From the NCBI RefSeq assembly GCF_028641065.1, contig NC_073389.1:29016001-29080000 (forward strand): a stretch of DNA of 64,000 bases, written 5' to 3'. The first letter of the stretch is position 1, and the number at the start of each line of letters is the position of its first letter. The DNA comes from Leucoraja erinacea. Taxonomy: Eukaryota. The notes beneath the pieces are model-generated. The model was not told where the DNA came from, made no database searches, and was given only the letters and a program-made list of their open reading frames with translations. The translations under genes and the position numbers were made by a program. Shown piece after piece: positions 12,110-54,089 of this stretch.

Positions 12110-12743
12110 CTGAGAAAAGTAGAGCAGTTAGTCATACACGTTCGCTACATGTGGGTTTCAAAGGATCCAAAATCACCTTGACATTGTTACTTAGCTTGCT
12201 TTTTTAATGAAACCATTTGTCCTACCCCCCCCTGCACCAAACTAGGGTTACAGCATTGTCTTCTGTTCACAATTTAAATGGATGTGAACCAAGTCTCAGT
12301 GGCTTCTCAAAAAAACACAAGCAGAAAGTGTTGACTGTACAGTATGTATCAGTTAATCTCTGCTGGTGTTTTCATCACACCTCCCTCAGACCAACACCCA
12401 CTTCACCCTGCCGTTCACTGCCCTACTTTTTATATATTCCCTCAAATTCTCATTCCACTTCCTGGCTCATCTCCCTTCAACATCTCTCCTGCTGATTTTA
12501 ATTACACACTGCAGTGCCCTAGCCGAAATGTATTCCTTGGACAGATAGCATTGTATATTTGTTGTATGACCGGACCAGTGTTCAAATCTCATTTCAGCAA
12601 TAATAAAATAAGTATGAACACATAGTTCAGTTCAGCAAGGGCGAAATATATTAAATCCCAACTGCGTTAGTAATGTTCTTTCAGGGAAGGGAATCTGCCT
12701 TGTGTTTCTGGTCCACCCAGTGAGAAATTGCAGACACAATGTA

Positions 12744-13679
12744 TATGGGTGTTTCCGTAAATACACCACTCAGTAGTGAAACTGAAGGTCTCCAAACTTA
12801 CAGGTTATTTTCCTGTTTTTTATGTAATATTCCCATTGTTTCATATTCTGTATTTTAAGTATTGTAGATCATGGTGTAGAGCCAAAATAATGAGATGAAG
12901 CAAAAATAAATGAATCTGTTTTTACAAAGAAAAATATCAGATATGTCTTTTTTCTTGCCTTTTATTGTGACATTTTTCAAGCAGAATTTCACCAAATCCT
13001 TAGGCTAATTTATACCACAAAGATTACATTAATTTTTAAATTAAATAACTCTATATAAGCCAAACTCTGATTGTGCTTATGATTTTTATTATTTAATCAC
13101 CCGATAAGATGGTTTTCTGATGCCCCAAGCTTTTGCAGCAGAACGTGAATAACAGTGTCCATTTGGTCACGTGTGAAATGGGTGAATTACAAGCAAAGTA
13201 ACCGTTTTTATATTTATTGTTTCTTTTTTTATCGTTTATATTTTGTGTTTAAGCTTTCCATTAAAATACTTAATAATGAATAGAACTTGAAATCATGAAA
13301 TATAAATCTAGTTTGCTCACCTATTTTATCAATCTCATATCTGTAGTCCCTCCGGTTTTGTTTGCACTCGTCGCAATTTTAAAATTTTCTTTTTTAACAA
13401 TGCGATTGTAATGATCCTGACCTGAACTATGGGCCTCGTGGTGTTACGTGCTAACATTTTGTAAGGGAGCTTAGAAATCAATATATTATTTTTCTCGATT
13501 TTGTTTTTCAATATAGTAAATTTTGGTCCCATTTTCGTCGATTTTGATCACAAATTAGCTCAAAATTATCAAAAGGTAGACCCATTTTTTATGCTGTGGT
13601 ATTTCATTATGATTTAATAACTTTCGAATTTGGCCACCCATGTTACAGGTTGGTACCCTTATTTACGGAAACACCCATA
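12744..13679. mobile_element. Non-autonomous TA-targeting DNA transposon in APOO intron 6
   Basis: TIR TATGGGTGTTTCCGTAAATA ... TATTTACGGAAACACCCATA in TA context; AT-rich non-coding interior. Confidence 0.8.
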
Positions 13680-14491
13680 TAGACTCTTATCTGCAGCCTT
13701 GCAAAACCACTCAGATGACGGGCCATTAAGGATGGAGAGTAAATGCTGGATTTCCTAATGACATCCATGTCACTTGAAGAAAAAACAAGATTACAGCTGC
13801 AGATTAACTAGCCAGTTCGATTGAATGAAAAGAGGTCATTTGAGGTATTCTCATCAGCACTTTGTCATGGATGGTACATTCTGAAAGATTCATTAAACCT
13901 ACTCTTAAGTGTCCTAACATGTGGACCTGACAACAAATGCTCCACCAGCAGTAGCAGATGGTTTGATAATTCACTGCACAAGCTGGCACTGGCATTTCCC
14001 TACTCCAAAGAGTGCATTGTCAACAGAAAATCTAAAGCAGTTTTTGACAACCTGTGCCAAAGACACTAATTAAATGCATCAATTTCTTTGGGATATATTT
14101 TAAACAGCATAAATAATAAAAAAAATCCTGAGGCATGTCAAACAGATATAAATCATATTTTGGGGACCTGGAAGATTGTACGCCCTGGAATTTTGAGGGG
14201 AAAAAACAAAGTGCTGGAGGAACACAGTGGGTCAGGCAGCATCTGTGGAGGGAAACGGACAATGTTTCGGATAAATTTCTGATGAAGGGTGCCAGCTCAA
14301 AATGTTGTCAGGCCATTTCATTTCACAGGTGCTGCCTGACCCGCTGAGTACCTCCATCAGTTATTTTTTAGCTCATAAATCATGTTTAACAATTCAAATA
14401 TTTAGAATGAATCTTAACACCTAGTTATTGTTTTGATATTTCTATGATGGAATCAATCAATGTGGAACTGGGATTCAAACAAGGTACTCAC

Positions 14492-14583
14492 CTTTGTGAT
14501 TTCAACTGTTGCTTGAGGATAATACAAAGAGGCGCAAGCAGCTATAAACCCGCATGAATAAATCACTTTCCTTGCACGGGAAC
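14492..14583 (-). CDS. APOO: APOO exon 6
   Basis: tatag|GT...AAG|gtgagt; 92 nt (G)SRARKVIYSCGFIAACASLYYPQATVEITK, containing the ASLYYPQ motif. Confidence 0.93.
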
Positions 14584-15401
14584 CTATAATTTCATCAAAA
14601 TAAATATAAATGTACTTAAATGAAGCCAATGGAATACTAGAAATGAAACTGAAATCAACCCATCTTATTTAGAGAGATTGTAACCAGCAGTTCAACATCC
14701 CAGTGAATCTGGTGCTGGGGAGGGTGATAGTATGATTGGACATGCAAAAACAGAGGGCATTCGTTTACCTCCCAAATTGTTTTTTGGCCAATCTCAAGTC
14801 ATGGCTCCAGTTCATAGGGCCTATTTGTGTCCAAGGTAGTATATGTGCCTGTGCCAGGAGATTGCAGACATAAGCCAAACTCAGGGATTGTAAAGCAGCA
14901 ACCTATGCTTGCGTTTCAAGTGTAGCACTGTCAGAGTGTAGTTTTGTGAATGAGGGGATAAAGCAAGATACCGCATCCCCACCAGTGATGATGAAAAATC
15001 CCATGGCACAACTCGGAAACAAGATCACGTACTACTGGTGGCCAAACTAACACTGCCCTCGGTGATCCCCATCTCATTCCTTTTATTACAACTCGCTGTG
15101 CACACATTGGTTGCAACAATGTCTATCTAACAGGAGGCAGCTGCAATGCATCATAAAAAGTTTATGTCCTTTTATATTGTCTTTGCTCTCAGCCTCTTCC
15201 GTTTCTTGTCTATATCCTCCGCAACAACCCTCCCCCCACCAAGCCACGATGGTGTGTGCAGGTGAACGTTAACCATTGTATTTGTTTTGGTGAAATGGAA
15301 GAGTACAAGTCACTTAGTCATTGTAATTGCATGACTGAGCTCAGATAGGCTTCATCAGATGATAAACTGCATCTAAAATGAAAAGTTGCTCCTGGACCTA
15401 C

Positions 15402-15500
15402 CCCTTCCGGCCAGCAGTAGACCTGCCACTCCAGCGAGTGTGATGACTCCAGCCCGTGGGTAAAATCCCGATGGCGGATTCTTCAGAAAGATATAGCCGT
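15402..15500 (-). CDS. APOO: APOO exon 5
   Basis: gacag|AC...G|gtaggt; 99 nt (D)GYIFLKNPPSGFYPRAGVITLAGVAGLLLAGR, with GxxxG transmembrane segment. Confidence 0.93.
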
Positions 15501-16898
15501 CTGTCAGAGACAACAAAAAACATCAGGACAATCCATTACTACGACTGTGTTTATGAGCTAACGGTAAATGTATTTCCTTGGTGAAAACAAGAGGTAGAAG
15601 GGTGCTGTGCACGGTATAACCAGTCATAAAACAACTAATTTTAATGATTAAGCATCCAATATGCATATAGGAAAGGTTTAGAAGGATATGGGTCAAATTC
15701 ACGCAAATGGGACTAGTTTAGAGGGAGCATCTTGGTCAGTATGGACGAGTTGGGCTGCAGGGCCTGTTTCCACACCTTATGACACTATAGACACAAAAAC
15801 TGGTATGACGACTAGGGAGGGGGAGGGACGTAGAGAGGGGGGATGCAAGGGTTACTTGAAATTAGAGTAATTTATATTCTGCATGGAATACATGAGATTT
15901 GTTTATTGCACTGTAATTGGGTTCAGAGTGCACAATGATGGCCATGATTTAGGTTTAGTCTGCTGGGACAACCCACATGATTCTAAGTTAAGCTATTTTT
16001 ACAACACACACATTATCAGTCCAACTATCAGTATTTCAATGCCAATGAGAGGACTACCAAAATTGAAAACTGAATAAGACATTATGTATGATAAATTTTG
16101 ATGAGCAAAATTATTTCATGGTAACGGTCCTTGACACACATGACTGAGCTTGGCCACCTTAAAACCACGTTCACATGTGAATTAGCAAAGTAACAGCTGC
16201 CAGCTGTTCATCAAAGTCAAATGGTTTTGAGCTAGCCTTAGATGTGCTGAAATGGGTTCATTGATCAAACAGCAGTAATCCAGGGGCCTGATCTCCAGTT
16301 CGATCACCATATACAGCAGCAGAGAGTTCCTGTGTAGATAGTCAGTGAACGGAAGCAAAGCATTGCTCGTATATTTTAAACTGTCAAGACACAGAGAGGT
16401 GTCTATTTAGAGCAACCTGGTGCCCTTGTACTTAGGTCAGCAGAGGTAATATACAGGCATTGCAAGCAATTCTGAAGGGCTCTATTGCAAGAGGATTTGA
16501 TTACAAGTGTGGAGATGCTTTGCTCCATTTACATAAAGCCCTGGTATGTCTGCAGCTGGAATAGAGTGAATAGGTATGATCTGACTACCAAAGGAAAATA
16601 CACTTGCAACAGAGGAACTGCAGCACCAGGTTTATACTTGGGACAGTGGGTTGAGGAGAGATTAAACAGACTGGACATAATCTCCAAGAATTTAAAAGAA
16701 TGAAAGGTGTCTCTTCAAAACATGCTAAATTGTTGTGGCACTTCAGTAGATGCAGAATTGCGCTAAAAATGCAGTTAATTAGCATTACGGCAAAAGGTTA
16801 GCCATGAACGGAAGAGCTGTGTGATCTAATCACACTTCTATTTCTTAAACCTCACTCTGTACAAAGCACCAAAATGTACCACAAACTCAGATCCTTAC

Positions 16899-16953
16899 CT
16901 TTTCCAAACTGGACAGTTCTTTCTATTTTAGGCTGAAGATTCTTGTAAACACC
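16899..16953 (-). CDS. APOO: APOO exon 4
   Basis: cctcag|GGT...AAG|gtaagg; 55 nt GVYKNLQPKIERTVQFGK. Confidence 0.9.
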
Positions 16954-17643
16954 CTGAGGAGAAAAAAAAGTTAATAAATGAATATAAAAATCTGTCTTCA
17001 CTAAAGAACAAAGTCCACAATTGCATTCACTACTCTGCGCCTGAAGGCATTTCTGTTTGTATTAAATGAAACGTTTCTAAGTACCATCTTTAACAAAGGT
17101 CCACGTTTGATAAGATTACTAAATGCTTATGGGCATAGGTAAAATGTGTCAATATCTAGGGTTTTCTTCAGATACAAACCCTGTCCTGTATTGGAGAATC
17201 CACTATTAATTGGGATCTGCACCTATACCTAGCAAATCCAAGGAACAATGATAGCAATCTAATAGTTAAAACAAGGTGACACAAGAAACTCCAGATGCTG
17301 GAATTTTAAACAAAAACCTAAGTGCTGGAGCATCTCAGCGGCTCAGGCAGGGAGTGGACAAATGCCATTTTGGGTCAGGACATTTCTTCAGACTGCAGAA
17401 AAGGTCTAGATCCAAACCATCATCTGTTCATTCCCTCCACAGTTGCTGCCTGACCCACTTAGGTGCCATTTTATTTTTTAGTTAAACAAGGAGATTGCAA
17501 AAAAGTTCCCAGAATACAGTAACCCAGACTTCTACCAACTTCTCTCATTCTTGGAGGAAACTATTGGGAAACCATTGAGTCATACAATTCAAATAAATCC
17601 CACTTTTTTCTCCACAGAACAAAACTCGAGAGATTTGCCATAC

Positions 17644-17763
17644 CTGATACTGGGCGGCATATGGTTTGATGTGGTTCCGCAGAGCAGAGATCCTCTCTTC
17701 AAGCCGAGTGGGTTTTGCATCCTCAAAGTGATAAGCTTTAGCTGGAGTTGTATAAAGTGACAA
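17644..17763 (-). CDS. APOO: APOO exon 3
   Basis: ctgcag|TTG...CAG|gtatgg; 120 nt LSLYTTPAKAYHFEDAKPTRLEERISALRNHIKPYAAQYQ (human LSLYSVP...QLEESISQLRHYCEPY), closer to MIC26 than MIC27. Confidence 0.93.
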
Positions 17764-17798
17764 CTGCAGAACAAAGATAGAACACTTTTGCAATAGAC

Positions 17799-18134
17799 CA
17801 GGGGTCTCCAAACTATGGCCGCGGGCCGCATCCGGCCTGCCTCAAGATTTTATCCGGCCCGCAGCAAGCTCTTAACACGTTCCATGCGTCAGTTTGCCGT
17901 GGGCTTTCTAGTTGAGGGTTTGTGTGCAGCTCGGCGGTAGCGGTGGCCCTAGTGAGTGACTGGGTGTGGGTGGGTGTGAGTGTGTGCGAGTGGGTGGGTG
18001 TGTGTGTGAGTGTGGATGAGGGTGTGTGTGTGTTGGTGGGTGTGTGTGTGGGTGAGTGAGTGTGTGTGAGTGGCCCACAAAAATGTGCCAAATATATAAT
18101 GTGGCCCTCATGCTGAAAAGTTTGGAGGGCCCTA
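17799..18134. mobile_element. hAT (Charlie-like) MITE
   Basis: CAGGGGTCTCCAAACT ... AGTTTGGAGGGCCCTA; 8-bp TSD CAATAGAC/CTATAGAC; internal TG-rich microsatellite. Confidence 0.8.
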
Positions 18135-18229
18135 CTATAGACCATTGAACGGCTGCCTACACAGGCTAAAATAACAACACTAATGCAACCATTTACCAAT
18201 ATGAATTTGTAGAAGAATTTGTGAGTTTG

Positions 18230-18523
18230 TGAGATGCTGTTGTGGCCTAGACATGCAACTGCAGTTATCACATGCTGGTGGTGGAGGGATGAATGTAAAG
18301 AAAGAATTTGTCTCCTGTTAGGATCTCCCATGCTGGACAGGTCAAAGGATAGAGGCAAGACGAAGAGTGATCCAGGTTCGAGGTTGAGCACAGGGCTAAC
18401 AACCCTGTCTCGTAAAACAAATATGTTACGGAAGCAGCAACTGAAGGAATCAACAAGGAGTGGAGGACCTTCGTTGCTGCCCTACATGCCAGGAGGCATA
18501 ATAGGCAGTAAGTATGTAAGTAA
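18230..18523 (+). mobile_element. Short RTE-derived non-autonomous retroposon
   Basis: RTE-type 5' UTR motifs (CTCCTGTTAGGATCTCCCATGCTGGACAGGTC...GGGCTAACAACCCTGTCTCGTAAAA) joined to an RTE-like 3' end (TTCGTTGCTGCCCTACATGCC) and a (TAAG)n tail. Confidence 0.6.
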
Positions 18524-18719
18524 GAAAGAAAATGTAGTAATGACTGGGATGTAGATCTGCGTACAAAAGGTCACTGTCATCTCAGAGAAGCTGATTTCCC
18601 AAACAACTAACTCGCCTCTTCTTACAATGCATGCTTTTTCTTGGTAAATCGTCTCAGTTGATCTCTCCCTCCGATATGGAACATGTCAATAATATCAAAG
18701 TAAAAAATAAAAATGTTAC

Positions 18720-18815
18720 CTGCTCAACTTTGAGAATCCCTTTCCTTTCTTCGTTACTCTGTGCAAACACAGTTGCTGACACAAAGCTTGTGCGGAGTGG
18801 AGCCAATCCAACCAG
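18720..18815 (-). CDS. APOO: APOO exon 2
   Basis: ttgcag|CTG...CAG|gtaaca; 96 nt LVGLAPLRTSFVSATVFAQSNEERKGILKVEQ. Confidence 0.88.
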
Positions 18816-18855
18816 CTGCAAGAAAATGTAGTTACTGCAGTGGCCAACATTTAAT

Positions 18856-20703
18856 AGCGTTGTTACAAAACCTACCATCAGCAGCGCTGTAGATCTGTCA
18901 CTGCCGGTGTGTGTGATTCTGGAGGCTTTGGGGGCAGGGATTAAAATGCAGATTTGTATTGGTTGACGGAGAGGGATTTCCTCGGGCTGCTAGCTGATGA
19001 AGAAAAATCGTTCGGGCTTCCCTTCCCTTTTTTTTTAAATTTGCTAGACCATTGTGTCACTGGATTGAACTTAAACCGCCTTCAACATCACGGATCGCAA
19101 TATCAGGACAAAACAAAAGGTATGTCGTTTATTTAACATATTATTCTGCTTTTTGATGTGGCTTCATTTTAATCTTATGATGCGAAAAATGTTATTTAGG
19201 ACAGCATACGAATCGGCCTTGTCTTGCCTGCCGATATGGGCTTAAATTTATGGCAACGGCAACATTCCAATCGAAACCATTCCAGAAACATCCACTCCCC
19301 AAGATAATCAAATTCTTGTTTTTTTATGCACAATCATGCCATAAGAACATCTAAATCATCTATATTTTGTGTTATTGTCCATCCATGATCAATATTTCCA
19401 TATTAAATACCCAGAGTACAGTTTTAGTCAGATGTATTGTGCAAAAAATAATGATTTTGATTATCTTGAGAGTGGATGTTTCTGGATTAATTTATGGGTA
19501 TTAAAAATTAAATTCCTTCCATTTGGCATATAAATTTATGACAAAGTGAGATTTAAAAATCATGTTATAATGTGAATTCTTGTGTGAATGGGATCAGTTT
19601 GTTATTCGTTATTAGGATACTTAGGCTATTTAAACATTTTAGCCTTTTCTTAAGAAATGAATAGATGTTTAGATCTAGTAATTGAATTTAGATTGAATTG
19701 ATTAGATGAATTAGATTTGATGAAACTGATGAATATGATTTTTTGTTGGGTATTTACTATTTGTTTTAGTGTTTAACTATCATTTCTATCTTTTTTCTAA
19801 AATTGCAAATAATAACTTGTTTCTGTTAATGTTGTTCAGTGTTATTTTTCTTTACATTTTAAAAAGATGTCTCCAAAGAAGAAATGCAAAATTGTCAATC
19901 CAAATGCCCAGCAAGAGACTGATTTGGACAGCATTCGCAGAGATTATCCAAATTTGGACTACTCCAAATGTGATGATCTACATGACATTCTTAATGGGAA
20001 AGTAGTGGGCCGAAAGGCATGTCATGCGTGGTTCGAAGACCAAAACGTTGTAGTTCACAATGCCAAAATTGAAAAGTTGAGGAAAAACAAGGTGTACAGA
20101 GTTGCTTGTTGTTTACAATCTGAGGAGTATGATGATGCTTCTGATTATGATATGCCAATGTACCAGCTAGCAACTGATCTTCTCTATAAAGACGGTCTTT
20201 TGCTAGAAATTGTCATTTCTTTACCGATCTGTTACAGACTTACAGCATATAATACAATAATATTAAAGTTCTGAACTTGAGAATATCACATTTTTTAATT
20301 TGCAAGGCAGTCTGGGTGTTTATTACTATTTCTGTCACAAAGATCAATTTTGTAATTAGCTACAATTAGGTAACTAACTAATTATATGCTTTAATATCAG
20401 GTCATCCAAGTAAGATGTTTTATATTTGTTTCAGAATGCTTCAATATACAATAACTGCCAATTTCATTCAGTTCTCTTAATTTTTAAGAAAGTTATGGGC
20501 TTTTGACTGTCCTCGATCACAGCTTTTGTGTTAAGTCAATGGAAAAGCAATAGGGAACAAGATGCCAATTTCCGAGTATGACTTTTACAATACTGAAGAT
20601 ATGAAAGTGAATTAGGTATCAAATTAAAGTTATTTTTATTCTTTATCTGATGGGATAAATTATAGGCTTGATTTTCAAGATTTCAAAATGTTGGAACATT
20701 CCT
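18856..20703. mobile_element. 1.85-kb DNA-transposon-like element in APOO intron 1 carrying an ORF
   Basis: Perfect flanking direct repeat ACATTTAAT (18847-18855, 20704-20712); imperfect TIRs AGCGTTGTTACAA / AGGAATGTTCCAA (rc). Confidence 0.7.
19867..20274 (+). CDS. Element-borne hypothetical 135-aa protein with N-terminal NLS and Tudor/Spin-Ssty-like pattern
   Basis: Open frame with globular composition in AT-rich DNA; ATG directly after a pyrimidine tract and AG; upstream donor AG|gtatgt at 19120; MSPKKKCK. Confidence 0.5.
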   Translation: MSPKKKCKIVNPNAQQETDLDSIRRDYPNLDYSKCDDLHDILNGKVVGRKACHAWFEDQNVVVHNAKIEKLRKNKVYRVACCLQSEEYDDASDYDMPMYQLATDLLYKDGLLLEIVISLPICYRLTAYNTIILKF

Positions 20704-20724
20704 ACATTTAATTTGTGGAATATA

Positions 20725-21359
20725 GGGTGATTTCACCAAAGGTCAAATGAGCGTAGATCCCCCCTCACGTGACTGAAACATTTAACTGGAGGACATGTCA
20801 CTTCGGTACATGTTAGTGAATGGGGAAACACGCACTTTCACACCCGTTAAAAACATGGAAAACGACCGATGGAACTGAAGGTGCCAATCCAGCGGAAGTG
20901 CTTAGCAGACATTTGCCATGGAGATTTAAAGGTCCAAAATATCAGGAATTATCGCGTTTGCTCGCAGAATTTCATCAAAAGTAAGTTAATAATGCCTTAC
21001 TTTTGACGAAATTCAGCGAGCAAACGCGATAATCCCCGATATTTTGGATCTTTAAATCTCCACGGCAAATCTCTGCTAAGCACTTCCGCTGGATTGGCAC
21101 CTTCAGTTCCCTCTTGTAATTACCTTACTTTCTATCTTTTTCTTTGCCTGAAAATTTAGGTCGCTGTGCTTCTCGGTCACCCCGACTAGCACAGAAAATT
21201 TCAGCTCAAATATCGGCCGTTTTCCATGTTTCTAACGGGTGTGAAAGTGCGTGTTTCCCCATTCACTAACATGTACCGAAGTGACATATGTCCTCCAGTT
21301 AAATTTTTCGGTCACGTGAGGGGGGATCTACGCTCATTTCAACTTTGGTGAAATCACCC
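20725..21359. mobile_element. Foldback-type MITE with ~260-bp inverted arms
   Basis: GGGTGATTTCACCAAAG ... CTTTGGTGAAATCACCC flanked by TATA; arms pair up to a 10-nt loop at 20986-20995. Confidence 0.85.
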
Positions 21360-21479
21360 TATAAGATCTTTGGATGGGACCCCATCACTGGCCCGCTAGT
21401 TCACGGGGTGTAATGCTACCCGTGGCCTCTGTCCTCCACTGATCCCCTGCCACTGACCGACACAGACTGTCTGTCCTCA

Positions 21480-22330
21480 GCAGCTTCAGATCTCTTCCTG
21501 GCCCCGACCGTACGGACTTGGCTCCCACGTCCAGCCCCCGCTCGCCGGGACCCCCCCCCCCCCCCGACCGGATCGGACCCCGTCCCCACTCCCGACAGAA
21601 TCCTCGACCCGCCCCAGCCCCCGGTCCCACACAGACCGGGATCTTCCGCCGGGACCACCCAGCCCTCACCGCCCCCGCCCCGCTACACCCAGGCCCCGCT
21701 ACCACAGGCCCCGCTCCCCCCGACCAGGATCCCTTCCCCCGGGCCCCCCCTCGGCCCCGCTCCCCCCCAGGCCCCGGCCCCGCTCACCCGGGCCTCGGCC
21801 CCGCTCCCCCGGGCCTCGACCACCCCGGCCCCGCTCGCCCCCCCGCCCGCATCGGCCCCGCTCCCCCCGGCCCCGCATCGGCCCCGCTCCCCCAGGCCCA
21901 GGCCCCGCATCGGCCCGGCCCCGCTCCCCCCCCCCGGCTCCCCCCCCCCGCCCCGCCCCCCCCGGGCCTCGGCCCCGCTCCCCCAGGCCCGGCCCCGCTC
22001 TCCCCCGGCCCCGCATCGGCCCGGCCCCGCTCCATTCCCACCATCTTGGCGCCGCGTCCTCCGCTCGATGCTCGGGTCGAAGCGTTGGGCTCCTCTATAA
22101 TCTTTGGTCCAGACCCCGTACGGCGGCCGCGGGAGGACGGAAGCGCCGCGCGAATTCAAAATATGCGGCGCGGCGGTGAACCCGCCAAACCAAAGATTAT
22201 AGAGCGGAGCCAGACATCGGTGGTTCAAGGCTTAAAGTACAGTGAGGGTCGGTGACGGCCGCTGGATGAGTGAAGGGGTTTGCGTTGTTGGAGAGCGTGG
22301 GTTCAGTGAGTTGGGGCGCAGGGAGACGTC
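21480..22330 (-). promoter_or_regulatory. CpG island / APOO promoter and exon 1 region
   Basis: Very high GC/CpG; GGCCCCGCTC repeats; ETS CGGAAG at ~22138; AAGATGG YY1-like motif at the start codon. Confidence 0.7.
22042..22044 (-). CDS. APOO: APOO probable exon 1 coding part (start codon only)
   Basis: GGCGCCAAG-ATG|gtggga in a CpG island; phase 0 joins in frame to exon 2; an alternative donor at 21787 is out of frame. Confidence 0.5.
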
Positions 22331-22456
22331 GGAGTTAATTGGGGGGGGGGGGGGGGGGGGGGTGTTGGGTGAGTGTCTGGATTGGGTGAGGTGCAGGAAA
22401 GATGTTAGGGTCAGAGATAGAATTGTGGGTTCTGAGAGGGGGTTAACATGGAGGGG

Positions 22457-22950
22457 TTCTTCTTCTTCTTCGGAGTTTTACGGCAGCCGGCATCCACAAT
22501 GTTGCATTGCTGCCACCTTCTGGCTTCATTCCACAGTCCTCATGTCTTTACTTTATATCCTTTTTATAAGCCCAGAGGCCCTCAAGAAATCAAACAACAA
22601 CTTTATTCCTTTCCCTTTCCCTCCACACTCTAGAATGTTCTTTACTGATATTTCTGTCAATCCAATTTTCCTCATTTCAATTATCATAAATCCTCTTTCT
22701 GTCTCATATCTCCTACATGCAATTAGGGCATGCTGAACTGTTTCTGGCTGATGGCATTCCTCACACAGTCCAGTAGGGTGTTTTCCCAATAATTTTAATG
22801 TGCTGTTCAGATAATTGTGTCCTATCCTCAATCTTGTTAATACTACCTGTTCCCCCCTCCTGGCTTCATTCCACAGTACTCATGTATTTATATTAGATCT
22901 TTTTTATAAGCCCAGAGGCCCTCAAGAAATTAAACAACAACTTTATTCCT
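22457..22950 (-). mobile_element. 3' end of an I/Nimb-type LINE
   Basis: ORF 22553-22831 RIGH...GLCEECHQPETVQHALIACRRY (CCHC knuckle of ORF2 C-terminus), (GAA)n tail at ~22457-22471, partial internal duplication 22515-22607 / 22856-22948. Confidence 0.7.
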
Positions 22951-46538: not shown

Positions 46539-48027
46539 AACCATATAACCATATAACCATATAACAATTACAGCACGGAAACAGGCCATCTCGACCCTTT
46601 TAGTCCGTGCCGAACACATAATCTCCCCTAGTCCCATATACCTGCGCTCAGACCATAACCCTCCATTCCCTTCCCATCCATATAACTATCCAATTTATTT
46701 TTAAATGTTAAAAACGAACCTGCCTCCACCACCTTCACTGGAAGCTCATTCCACACAGCTACCACTCTCTGAGTAAAGAAGTTCCCCCTCATGTTACCCC
46801 TAAACTTCAGTCCCTTAATTCTCAAGTCATGTCCCCTTGTTTGAATCTTCCCTATTCTCAGTGGGAAAAGCTTCTCCACGTCAACTCTGTCTATCCCTCT
46901 CATCATTTTAAAAACCTCTATCAAGTCCCCCCTTAACCTTCTGCGCTCCAAAGAATAAAGCCCTAACTTGTTCAACCTTTCTCTGTAACTTAGTTGCTGA
47001 AACCCAGGCAACATTCTAGTAAATCTCCTCTGTACTCTCTCTATATTGTTGACATCCTTCCTATAGCTAGGCGACCAAAATTGTACACCATACTCCAGAA
47101 TTGGCCTCACCAATGCCTTGTACAATTTTAACATTACATCCCAACTTCTATACTCAATGCTCTGATTTATAAAGGCCAGCACACCAAAAGCTTTCTTTAC
47201 CACCCTATTTACCTGAGATTCCACTTTCAGGGAACTGTGCACAGTTATTCCCAGATCCCTCTGTTCACCTACATTCTTCAATTCCCTACCATTTACCATG
47301 TACGTCCTATTTTGATTTGTCCTGCCAAGATGTAGCACCTCACACTTATCAGCATTAAACTCCATCTGCCATCTTTCAGCCCACTCTTTCAACTGGCATA
47401 AACCTCTCTGTAGACTTTGAAACTCTACTTCATTACCCGCAACCCCACCTATCTTAGTATCATCTGCATACTTACTAATCCAATTTACCACACCATCATC
47501 CAGATCATTGATGTACATGACAAACAACAGTGGACCCAACACAGATCCCTGTGGCACCTCACTCGTCACTGGCCTCCAACCTGACAAACAACCATCCACC
47601 ATTACTCTCTGGCATCTCCCATTCAGCCACTGTTGAATCCTTCTTGCTACTCCACCAGTAATACCCAACCATTGAACCTTCTTAACCAACCTTCCATTGT
47701 CAAAGGCCTTACTGAAGTCCATATACACAACATCCACTGCTTTACCCTCATCAATTTCCCGAGTAACATCTTCAAAGAATTCAAGAAGATTAGTTAAACA
47801 TGACCTTCCAGGCACAAATCCATGTTGACTGTTCCTAATCAGACCCTGTTTATCCAGATGCTTATATATATTATCTCTAAGTATTCTTTCTATTAATTTG
47901 CCCACCACTGACGTCAAACTAACAGGTCTATAATTGCTAGGTTTACTCTTAGACCCCTTTTTAAACAATGGAACAACATGCGCAGTACGCCAATCCTCCG
48001 GCACTATTCCCGTTTCTAATGACATTT
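46539..48027 (-). mobile_element. Young 5'-truncated CR1 (HER1-like) LINE with open RT frame
   Basis: Open frame 46628-48049 with NYRPVSLTS, QHGF, DFSKAFD, VPQGSVLGP, YADD; 8-bp tandem tail (AACCATAT)n. Confidence 0.95.
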
Positions 48028-51611: not shown

Positions 51612-52817
51612 TATTTTAAATGACGCTCTGATTATTCAATTTGCTATTTAAAAGGCAGAAGAAAACTGAAGGTTCATTGTCTTTCTTGATATAATCAAGA
51701 TATGATCACGGAATTGTTGGATCTCCAGTCACTAGGAGAACCATGTGGATCAGGAGTTCACATGGAATCATTAGTTGTATCACTGAAGGAGGCCATTAGA
51801 TCCATTCTGTTTACGGTACTCGCAGATGCTGGAATCTCTGGAAAACAAACTACTAGAGGAACACAGCTGGTCAGGCAGTAACTGTGGTGGGAGATGGATG
51901 GCATTTTGGGTCAGGCCCCTTTGTCAAACCGATGGAGTAGAAAGCTGGTAAAGTGAGATGGAGGCGAAGCAATAATCCATTAGGTACCTGCTTGCTCTTT
52001 GCAAGAACAATCCAGCCAATCCCAACAAACCCCATCCCCCTCCCCTATTATCAATTTCTACCCCCACTCCTGCAAATTCTTCCCTTTCCCTCCTAACACT
52101 GCAAATTAATTTGCCCTGGTAGCACATTTCATTATGTTACATCTGATTCTTTTGTCATCATCTTTATTGGATGTCCCCTTGTTCTTGACCACTCCACCAA
52201 TAGGAACAGTTCCTCTCTATCTGTTCTGCCTACAGCCTTCATGAACTTAAATCTCTGTCCAGTGCCTTTGCAACTCCATCTGTTCCTAACAGCGAAATCC
52301 CATCTCCTTCAAATTCCTCATCCCCAGGAATCACATTGATAAATGTCTTCTGCACCCTCTAAAGAATTCCAAAGCAACTATCAAAAAATAGAAAAACGTA
52401 GAGTGGAAACGTTTGTTTATTTGGAGGTGACGACACACAAGGATGGTTGATGGTCTAGGGAGTTTTTTGGGAATGCTGAGAACTATAACAGAGTTATATT
52501 TATTGGGTCTCTGAAATTGATTTGATAAACATATTTGTCTGTAATCAGATTCCAAAAGATAAGGGACAATATCCCGATGTAACATTCTGTTAGCTTCACT
52601 AAACAACAGCCACAAACCAAAGTGATGAAGCCTGGTGATGAGACCACCAGTGAAGAATGAACGCCTTGTGTGAACTGTTGGATACACTCGGTTCCAAGCC
52701 CTTCTGCATCAATTGGAACAACGGATGGATGCTGCACTTTGGTTAATTGGTGACTGGAAAGTGATGGACAATAATCCAGCTGAGATTGGGTAACTGGCTG
52801 AAATGGATGGGAGCAAT

Positions 52818-53690
52818 CATATAACCATATAACAATTACAGCATGGAAAACAGGCCATCTTGGCCCTTCAAGTCCGTGCCGAACACTTACTCTCCTAGTC
52901 CCATCTACCTGCACTCGGACCATAACCCTCCATTCCTTTCCCGTCCATATACCTATCCAATTTATTTTTAAATGATAACATTGAACCTGCCTCCACCACT
53001 TCCACTGGAAGCTCATTCCACACAGCTACCACTCTCTGAGTAAAGAAGTTCCCCCTCATGTTACCCCTAAACTTCTGTCACTTAATTCTCAAGTCATGTC
53101 CTCTTGTTTGAATCTTCCTTACTCTCACTGGGAAAAGCTTATCCACGTCAACTCTGTCTATCCCTCTCATCATTTTAAAGACCTCTATCAAGTCCCCCCT
53201 TAACCTTCTGCGCTCCAAAGAGTAAAGACCTAACTTGTTCAACCTTTCTCTGTAACTTAGTTGCTGAAACCCAGGCAACATTCTAGTAAATCTCCTCTGT
53301 ACTCTTTCTATTTTGTTGACATCCTTCCTATAGCTAGGCGACCAAAATTGTACACCATACTCCAGAATTGGCCTCACCAATGCCTTGTACAATTTTAACA
53401 TTTATATCCCAACTTCTATACTCAATACTCTGATTTATAAAGGCCAGCACACCAAAAGCTTTCTTTACCAACCTATCTACATGAGATTCCACCTTCAGGG
53501 AACTATGCACAGTTATTCCTAGATCCCTCTGTTCAACTGCATTCCTCAATTCGCTACCATTTACCATGTAGTCCTATTTTGATTTGTCCTGCCAAGATGT
53601 AGCACCTCACACTTATCAGCATTAAACTCCATCTGCCATCTTTCAGCCCACTCTTTCAAATGGCCTAAATCTCTCTGTAGACTTTGGAAA
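52818..53690 (-). mobile_element. Second copy of the same young CR1 subfamily
   Basis: Nearly identical to 46539-47420; same (ATATAACC) tail; frameshift near 53400. Confidence 0.93.
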
Positions 53691-54089
53691 TCCACTGAAT
53701 GCGGTACATCCAAAAGGAAGAGCATAGAAGGAATTAGAGGAAGAAGGGTTTTGGAAATGGATTTAATTCCTTATCAAACCCCAAAACCACATGATGCCCT
53801 AGGATGGAGAGGAGGAATCGTCAACCTACGTATCAGAGAACTCTAGGTTTCGGATGTTTGATATTGAGCACCCAGAGTCTTGACTATGCAAATGAGTGCT
53901 TGCACCTTGTGTAATGAAGAGTTTGGAGCAAACTAAGTGTGTTGGTGTTGTGCTTTAACTGGGCACAACAGTGTCCTCTTCCATCATGGAAAGGGATTCA
54001 ATGATTCTCAATGAAGGACATCATTATCCTCAGGTGATTTTTTTTGCAATGTGAAGGCGTTATTGTACTTTTTAAACCTTTTTAAGTCA

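What the first reader, a model, noticed from the sequence alone, without database searches (positions are those of the whole stretch)
18856..20703. TSD-bounded element in APOO intron 1 carrying an apparently spliced antisense mini-gene (NLS + Tudor/Spin-Ssty-like protein)
Seen: a perfect 9-bp direct repeat ACATTTAAT flanks 1.85 kb with weak TIRs. Inside, on the strand opposite APOO, are an ATTGG (CCAAT) box at ~18958, a donor AG|GTATGT at 19120, a pyrimidine tract + AG directly followed by ATG at 19867, and an intact 135-aa ORF. The protein begins MSPKKKCK (SV40-type NLS). Inference: VVGRKACHAWF...NAKIEK...VYRV...EEYDD...YQLATDLL resembles the VGKxxxH...YxxxY..D...YxLxxD pattern of Spin/Ssty (Tudor-like) chromatin-reader folds. 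No transposase motif is visible, so this may be a non-autonomous transposon carrying an accessory chromatin-binding gene. This is the best candidate for an undescribed system in the window.
Basis: partly seen in the sequence, partly recalled or inferred. Interest (0 to 1): 0.75.

Follow-up and report, generated by a model that had tools for sequence, protein, structure and literature searches.

The report
Gutted hAT-like transposon, not mini-gene
This is a decayed copy of a high-copy jumping-DNA element inside an apolipoprotein O intron, whose short reading frame is the likely start and the tail of a 960-residue transposase predicted to fold like hAT enzymes, so it is most likely an ordinary remnant; only the transposase's predicted Tudor-like tail, a possible histone-mark reader, is unusual.

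Summary
The repeat, splice signals and frame exist, but this is not an accessory gene. The 135-aa frame joins about 15 residues like a transposase start to the last ~95 residues of 850-1000-aa proteins (66% identity to the closest). One full-length relative folds like the hAT transposase Hermes (Z 19.1). The catalytic core is deleted. The element is a high-copy repeat in 4 of 4 DNA runs. This copy is damaged: it has a frameshift at 20193 (the last 26 residues are read-through) and has lost conserved Y64, Y81 and W82. Many copies have the junction out of frame or lack the frame. The ends are best read as TAG...CTA (18855-20704) with a 7-bp target duplication, not 9 bp. Both come from the transposase gene. 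The scan found this transposase type before on other DNA (e1-7787808). Verdict: ordinary non-autonomous element from an unusual, unnamed hAT-like lineage.

The parts
   Evidence: relatives' ends begin T/C-AGG; one relative has an exact 7-bp flank repeat
18855..20704 (+). whole non-autonomous hAT-like element, 1850 bp, TAG...CTA ends
   Evidence: 12,326-18,011 contigs laid per run in 4 of 4 DNA runs vs flank depth of about 6-36; a contig of another copy starts aligning at 18855 (record 10)
18855..18870 (+). left imperfect terminal inverted repeat
   Evidence: 12 of 20 matches to the right end; like the left end at L013:3650
20689..20704 (-). right imperfect terminal inverted repeat
   Evidence: 2 mismatches in 14 to the right end of transposase locus L002
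20705..20711 (.). right target-site duplication CATTTAA
18958..19119 (+). likely promoter region and non-coding first exon of the old transposase gene (start not mapped)
   Evidence: donor at 19119/19120; skip of 747 in run X15 and a contig leaving at 19119 in X19; the ATTGG itself is not enriched
19120..19866 (+). 747-nt 5'-UTR intron, likely inherited from the transposase gene
   Evidence: joints skipping 747 and 748 in 2 contigs of X15; an acceptor 3-10 nt before the ATG in 12 of 14 full-length loci with a recognisable start (by eye; several are one family)
19867..19911 (+). likely first 15 codons of the transposase (basic NLS-like start)
   Evidence: resembles starts of P0147, P0146, P0180, P0009
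19912..20193 (+). last ~95 codons of the transposase: short helices plus Tudor-like beta-barrel; deletion junction at about 19912
   Evidence: 66% over 93 aa to the end of 960-aa P0146, 59% to P0144; fold
20194..20206 (+). original end of the frame (V-F-C-stop), now out of frame in this copy
   Evidence: 2 extra bases after 20193 in 21 of 33 reads of X23 and in contigs of X15, X17, X19; homologs end in similar residues
20194..20274 (+). 26-residue read-through tail, not homologous to relatives, low model confidence
18720..18815 (-). host APOO-family exon (likely exon 2), whose acceptor lies 39 nt from the element's left end
   Evidence: (X17 record 9; X15 loose end); gene identity from the exon at 15379-15522

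Best explanation
The element is a decayed, non-autonomous copy of a high-copy DNA transposon, likely made by an internal deletion that joined the first ~15 codons of a ~960-residue transposase, predicted to fold like hAT enzymes, to its last ~95 codons. Steps: (1, inferred) an autonomous element with TAG...CTA ends, a 5'-UTR intron and one transposase exon lost about 850 codons, including all of D-D-E; (2, high copy number shown, mechanism inferred) the short element kept both ends and was spread in trans by cut-and-paste, making 7-bp duplications; (3, shown in one run, near-shown in three) one copy landed antisense in the APOO intron before several related organisms diverged; (4, shown) this copy then took a frameshift and lost conserved aromatic residues, as expected of neutral decay. 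Promoter, intron, NLS and Tudor-like barrel are leftovers of the parent gene. In the parent, the barrel likely contacts chromatin or DNA; reading of methylated histones is untested.
For: Homology: of 138 hits, the long ones match at their extreme C-terminus; 66% to P0146 and 59% to P0144. A profile of the tail hits 87 of 119 long homologs, 75 of these within 6 residues of the end, and 67 of 79 that carry all five catalytic-core motifs. Parent fold: P0144 model pLDDT 85; Hermes is the top hit by Foldseek (E 2.8e-6) and VIA (Z 19.1, rmsd 3.3, 339 aligned; Z 17.1 vs 11.1 for the next fold). Start: residues 1-15 resemble full-length starts (score 43 vs 22 elsewhere in P0147); P0009 is a separate short protein with the same start-plus-tail layout. 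Copy number. Decay: frameshift; 8 of 12 listed majority differences change a residue, all 8 away from the residue commoner in 67 homologs (Y64 55 vs 0, Y81 65 vs 1, W82 60 vs 1). The frame is dispensable: the best-supported joints in 4 of 4 DNA runs skip about 661-667 nt and remove it entirely; 2 extra bases at the junction put other copies out of frame (majority by depth in X15, X17, X19).
Against: The direct autonomous parent was not found; no host genome was available. The start match is short and low in complexity: the N-terminal window scored best in only 25 of 59 long proteins. In raw RNA run X23 only 8 of 65 reads carry the junction insertion, so an in-frame short ORF may be common there. 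The 12 differences are the ORF rows among the best 40 of 222 shown, a small selected set. The left junction is bridged by 31 or more letters in only 1 of 4 runs (26-27 letters in the other three). The 7-bp reading rests on relatives' ends and one post-hoc example; L011 and L013 have candidate ends without matching flanks.
Confidence: 0.9

Rival explanations
1. The founder deletion made an in-frame NLS + Tudor-like mini-protein (~113 aa) that intact copies elsewhere express. It acts in trans as a dominant-negative or chromatin-binding regulator of the transposase, in the manner of P-element KP protein (recalled). This copy is a dead member.
For: The junction is in frame here and in 57 of 65 X23 reads that show no insertion. 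The intron is skipped in 2 contigs of X15. X23 reads over 19470-20130 are mostly of one orientation, consistent with sense RNA. The family-majority residues keep the conserved aromatics. The break falls just before the folded domain.
Against: The junction is out of frame in the majority by depth of 3 of 4 RNA-type runs, including X15, where splicing is seen. X23 covers the intron as deeply as the ORF, 78% of its reads run on into unlike sequence, and no spliced joint is among the rows shown. ORF-less derivatives give the best-supported joints.
Confidence: 0.07
2. One reading: this locus holds a functional accessory chromatin-reader gene unrelated to a transposase.
For: Open frame, splice signals, Tudor-like fold.
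Against: The sequence is the transposase's own tail. This copy is frameshifted and lacks Y64, Y81 and W82. Only 4 of 1409 X23 reads are 99% or more alike, though that organism may differ from the window's.
Confidence: 0.01
3. Same remnant, different class: the parent belongs to another CxxH superfamily (MuDR with a 9-bp duplication, P, or Dada) and the ends are AG...CT.
For: The 9-mer is a perfect repeat. [quoted passage not shown] No Pfam hAT domain is hit.
Against: Hermes Z 17-19 vs ISCth4 10-11 and P 8.4. Atlas structural neighbours include clusters rich in Dimer_Tnp_hAT and DUF659. Relatives' ends start T/C-AGG.
Confidence: 0.1

Closest known systems
Hermes / hAT superfamily transposases (PDB 6dwz, 4d1q, 8edg)
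   Same: The parent has an RNase H DDE core with a helical insertion, a CxxH motif and short imperfect terminal repeats; Z 19.1 over 339 residues.
   Different: About 960 aa. No BED finger or PF05699 hit by Pfam. A likely 7-bp rather than 8-bp duplication. An extra C-terminal Tudor-like barrel. This copy lacks the core.
hATm family (PMC6004678, passages)
   Same: TAG...CTA ends; the right end begins TAGG.
   Different: hATm ends are TAGGGTG/CACCCTA with 8-9-bp duplications and PF05699; here TAGCGTT / TAGGAAT, 7 bp, no PF05699.
hAT families with 7-bp duplications (Repbase label, PMC4455052; fungal hAT7, PMC12730594; hATw of Hydra, recalled only)
   Same: Likely 7-bp duplication; many Hydra vulgaris homologs. 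That hATw has 7-bp duplications and comes from Hydra is recalled, from no call.
   Different: No Repbase or Dfam sequence was available, so identity with hATw is untested; hAT7 is a fungal lineage.
Spindlin / Spin-Ssty and other Tudor readers (PDB 4uy4, 9t31, 7de9)
   Same: Barrel topology: P0144 899-973 vs RDM15 Tudor Z 7.7, rmsd 1.7 over 58; Spindlin-4 Z 7.3, rmsd 2.7 over 65. The family profile's best PDB hits are Spindlins (E 0.036-0.7).
   Different: A single barrel on a transposase. Scores are in the range common for small barrels (the TraI translocation domain ties). No binding data.
Earlier scan finding e1-7787808 (sea-urchin hAT-like transposon with Spindlin-type tail)
   Same: Same architecture as the parent reconstructed here.
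   Different: That one is described as intact and autonomous; this is a decayed deletion derivative in a vertebrate intron.

Membership tests
hAT superfamily (broad sense; parent protein) | RNase H DDE core with helical insertion domain, Hermes-like | tested here: met
   on P0144; conserved D419, D496, E778
hAT superfamily (broad sense; parent protein) | CxxH motif between second D and E | tested here: met
   C521 and H524 invariant in 81 sequences; motif not specific to hAT
hAT superfamily (broad sense) | short terminal inverted repeats and a fixed-length target duplication (usually 8 bp; 5, 6 and 7 bp known) | tested here: inconclusive
   imperfect repeats, 12 of 20; 7 bp preferred over 9 from relatives; one insertion only
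canonical hAT families Ac/Buster/Tip | Pfam PF05699 dimerisation domain | tested here: inconclusive
   no Pfam hit in 16 long homologs scanned, yet the structural match runs to Hermes residue 609
canonical hAT families Ac/Buster/Tip | 8-bp target duplication | tested here: not met
   symmetric readings give 7 or 9 bp; 8 bp needs asymmetric ends
hATm | TAGGGTG...CACCCTA termini, 8-9-bp duplication | tested here: not met
   ends are TAGCGTT and TAGGAAT vs PMC6004678
hATw (definition recalled) | sequence clustering with Repbase hATw transposases | not testable with these tools
   no Repbase or Dfam library; papers name the class without defining it
Spin/Ssty (Spindlin) Tudor-like | Tudor/SH3-like barrel fold | tested here: met
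   Z 4.7-7.7, modest
Spin/Ssty (Spindlin) Tudor-like | significant sequence match to the family | tested here: inconclusive
   profile E 0.036 to Spindlin-4; Tudor-type Pfam hits at E 0.005-0.05 in a few of 68 members
Spin/Ssty (Spindlin) Tudor-like | binds methyl-lysine or methyl-arginine through an aromatic cage | not testable with these tools
   aromatics W55, Y64, Y77, Y81, W82 are conserved in the family; three are lost in this copy
non-autonomous deletion derivative | both ends kept, catalytic region lost, many copies | tested here: met

The most novel reading that the evidence does not exclude
This hAT-like lineage carries a Spindlin-type Tudor domain that reads methylated histones to steer integration, as chromodomains do for some retrotransposons. 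The founder of this short family fused the NLS to that domain, so in-frame spliced copies make a small reader protein that competes with the transposase or with host readers: a transposon-encoded epigenetic decoy spread to thousands of copies.
Probability: 0.07. Interest if true: 0.7.

Novelty: new member of a known kind. Interest (0 to 1): 0.22.

Why it matters
As it stands, little: internally deleted DNA transposons are common, and this copy is dead. The lead worth keeping is the parent. It is a ~960-aa Hermes-fold transposase, found in molluscs, Hydra, echinoderms, priapulids and fishes, that Pfam does not recognise and that mostly ends in a Tudor-like barrel (67 of 79 complete cores). If that barrel reads histone marks (my estimate about 25%), it would be a cut-and-paste transposase with built-in chromatin targeting, of use for understanding target choice and for gene-delivery tools. 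I did not find the combination in searches; the scan noted it before (e1-7787808).

Tried and rejected
Pfam and PDB sequence searches with the 135-aa frame gave nothing significant. The Atlas feature hit (0.90, no Pfam family, recognition below the bar) was set aside. Pfam scans of three short host exon pieces and one longer frame gave nothing; one of those pieces was read in the wrong frame. A PDB sequence search with the full-length profile gave only coiled coils. No second copy lies in the window, and no host genome is held, so copies could not be counted or aligned and dN/dS was not computed. No RNA holder was listed on record; runs X15, X17 and X19 are guessed RNA. The spliced joint is not among the 15 joints shown for DNA runs (203 not shown) nor in raw run X23 (5 not shown). 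The X15 joints are placed 5 nt left of the predicted site, with ends not GT..AG as listed, so they support but do not prove it. Searches for paired ends plus duplication in 48 metagenome loci were mostly empty; one 7-bp case was found. No relatives in viral or prokaryotic contigs. No Rfam match at 17500-22500. The bacterial promoter scan does not apply to a eukaryote. Run X5 has no cover at 20741-20790 (neighbour MITE); not used as evidence. Literature searches gave no definition of hATw or hAT19. The supplement search of PMC12730594 had no hits. The .doc supplements of PMC6004678, which hold the hATm terminus and duplication tables, cannot be read and may bear on the subgroup. No complex prediction was run: a methylated histone peptide cannot be tested there. 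Scan look-ups were empty.

Full report
Observation. The 9-mer alone is weak (846 such pairs at 1-3 kb in the window) and ATTGG is not enriched (159 vs 218 expected). The host gene is APOO-like: a minus-strand exon hits Pfam ApoO (E 4.1e-6, below the curated cut-off). The exon at 18720-18815 is spliced on both sides in RNA-type contigs. The element's left end lies 39 nt from that exon's acceptor. That the intron is intron 1 is inferred.

What the frame is. Pfam and PDB sequence searches gave nothing. Protein searches gave P0002 and P0003, which match residues 16-109 at 66-68% but extend far upstream. The exhaustive search gave 138 hits, among them proteins of 850-990 aa matched at their extreme C-terminus. 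A search with the 973-aa chiton protein P0144 (XP_064605117.1) gave 118 homologs, all unnamed or 'uncharacterized' apart from one BTB-fused record, from molluscs, Hydra, echinoderms, a priapulid, a brachiopod, a sponge and teleosts. The closest full-length one is P0146 (960 aa; 66% over 93 aa). A profile of the tail hits 87 of 119 long homologs (75 within 6 residues of the end) and 67 of the 79 that have all five core motifs. Residues 1-15 resemble the starts of these proteins: 37 of 54 long proteins open with a similar basic patch, and P0147 scores 43 against 22 elsewhere, but the start window wins in only 25 of 59. So the frame is read as start plus tail with about 850 codons deleted; the tail is shown and the start is likely. 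P0009 has the same start-plus-tail layout.

What the parent is. The 81-sequence alignment keeps D419, D496, C521xxH524 and E778. The model of P0144 (pLDDT 85) matches Hermes best: Foldseek E 2.8e-6; Z 19.1, rmsd 3.3, 339 aligned; Z 17.1 against 11.1 for the next fold, 10.2 for ISCth4 and 8.4 for P. Atlas structural neighbours include hAT clusters. Pfam does not recognise 16 long homologs scanned as hAT. The tail is a small barrel: RDM15 Tudor Z 7.7 (rmsd 1.7, 58 aligned) and Spindlin-4 Z 7.3 (2.7, 65), tied with the TraI translocation domain at 7.2. The window's own model gives only Z 4.7-5.0 and Foldseek E 0.5 or worse, though mostly to Tudor and chromo domains. The family profile's top PDB hits are Spindlins at E 0.036-0.7.

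Ends. Shifted by one base, the ends read TAG...CTA (18855-20704; 12 of 20 matches) with a 7-bp duplication. Transposase loci from metagenomes (48 loci) have similar ends: L013:3650 on the left, L002:2896 on the right, and both ends of L011. A contig of another copy starts aligning at 18855. In L003 a pair of 7-base identical ends at 198 and 15341 encloses the transposase with an exact 7-bp flank repeat: 1 of 129 such pairs, 0.01 expected, post hoc. L011 and L013 show no matching flanks, which may reflect collapsed assemblies. I put 7 bp at about 75%. hAT families with 5, 6 and 7-bp duplications are known (PMC12730594 and PMC4455052, passages). hATm has TAGGGTG ends and 8-9 bp (PMC6004678, passages), which this element does not meet. 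hATw is my best guess for the name, from memory only.

Copies and decay. Twenty listed runs from 12 studies and nine coded organisms hold part of the element. In 4 of 4 DNA runs laid, 12,326-18,011 contigs fall on the stretch, against flank depth of about 6-36 (depth is not a copy number). Contigs run from the host flank into the element in all four, by 42 letters in X5 and 26-27 in the others (31 is the tool's bar), so the insertion here is probably shared and old. The best-supported joints skip about 661-667 nt from near 19686 and remove the whole frame. Other copies carry 2 more bases after 20193 (21 of 33 X23 reads; contigs in X15, X17, X19), which gives the homologs' ending; this copy is frameshifted. 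Of the 12 majority differences inside the frame among the 40 rows shown (of 222), 8 change a residue, and all 8 move away from the residue commoner in 67 homologs, including Y64, Y81 and W82. At the deletion junction 2 extra bases occur in 8 of 65 X23 reads but in most of the depth of X15, X17 and X19: the reading frame across the junction is not conserved.

Transcription. Two contigs of X15 (guessed RNA) skip 747 and 748 nt at the predicted intron, though placed 5 nt off. In raw stranded run X23, 1409 reads were laid. They are mostly of one orientation, consistent with sense RNA (the host-exon control is only about 2 reads). They cover intron and frame alike, 78% run on into unlike sequence, and 4 are 99% or more alike. 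This looks like many copies inside other transcripts and shows nothing specific to this locus. In full-length loci an acceptor lies 3-10 nt before the ATG in 12 of 14 with a recognisable start (17 examined, by eye, not independent), so the intron is likely the transposase gene's own.

Mechanism and rivals. Best reading (0.9): a deletion derivative mobilised in trans by the parent transposase, inserted antisense in the APOO intron and now decaying. A trans-acting mini-protein from intact copies remains possible (0.07), because the junction is often in frame and splicing is seen; no selection test could be run. A functional stand-alone gene at this locus is about 0.01. Separately, there is about a 0.1 chance that the superfamily call is wrong.

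Literature and novelty. Two searches for a Tudor or Spin-Ssty domain on a transposase (listings and abstract starts only) showed no such report; the library lacks Repbase Reports and most subscription journals. I also saw passages of PMC8721813, PMC12905397, PMC8869645, PMC13465017 and PMC3942097. The scan had already noted an intact element of this architecture in a sea urchin (e1-7787808, seen after my own fold results); that is not independent evidence. The finding is a new member of a known kind, interest 0.22. The parent's tail domain is the part worth a bench test.

Noticed in passing
window 20723-21361: A separate MITE starts 18 bp right of the element: ~150-bp terminal repeats at 95%, an inner 118-bp palindrome, ends TAGGGTG...CACCCTA as described for hATm, but flanked only by TA/TA with no 8-9-bp duplication, so it may be Tc1/mariner-like.
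   Followed up: partly
window 19119: One contig of guessed-RNA run X19 leaves the donor site into unrelated sequence: the element's first exon may splice into host genes at other copies.
   Followed up: no
window 19274-19493: Imperfect 51-bp inverted repeat inside the intron; many copies have other sequence before 19486 or skip 19275-19499, suggesting a small insertion or inversion-prone segment.
   Followed up: no
window 19686-20349: Shorter subfamilies lacking the whole frame give the best-supported joints in 4 of 4 DNA runs.
   Followed up: partly
P0009, P0011: Short unnamed proteins with a transposase-like start joined to the same tail domain; possibly independent deletion derivatives that keep the tail.
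   Followed up: no
P0146, P0176, P0180, P0220 and invertebrate homologs: Patchy occurrence in fishes and marine invertebrates with 66% identity to the window's tail hints at horizontal transfer; not tested.
   Followed up: no
L013 3650-13256; L003 198-15341: Autonomous-type relatives appear large (about 10-15 kb), L013 with arrays of subterminal repeats.
   Followed up: partly
window 46547-47429 and 52815-53696: An 885-bp direct duplication at 94% identity.
   Followed up: no
window 21500-22050: GC-rich low-complexity repeats just inside the presumed APOO intron 1, beside a CpG-rich first exon.
   Followed up: no
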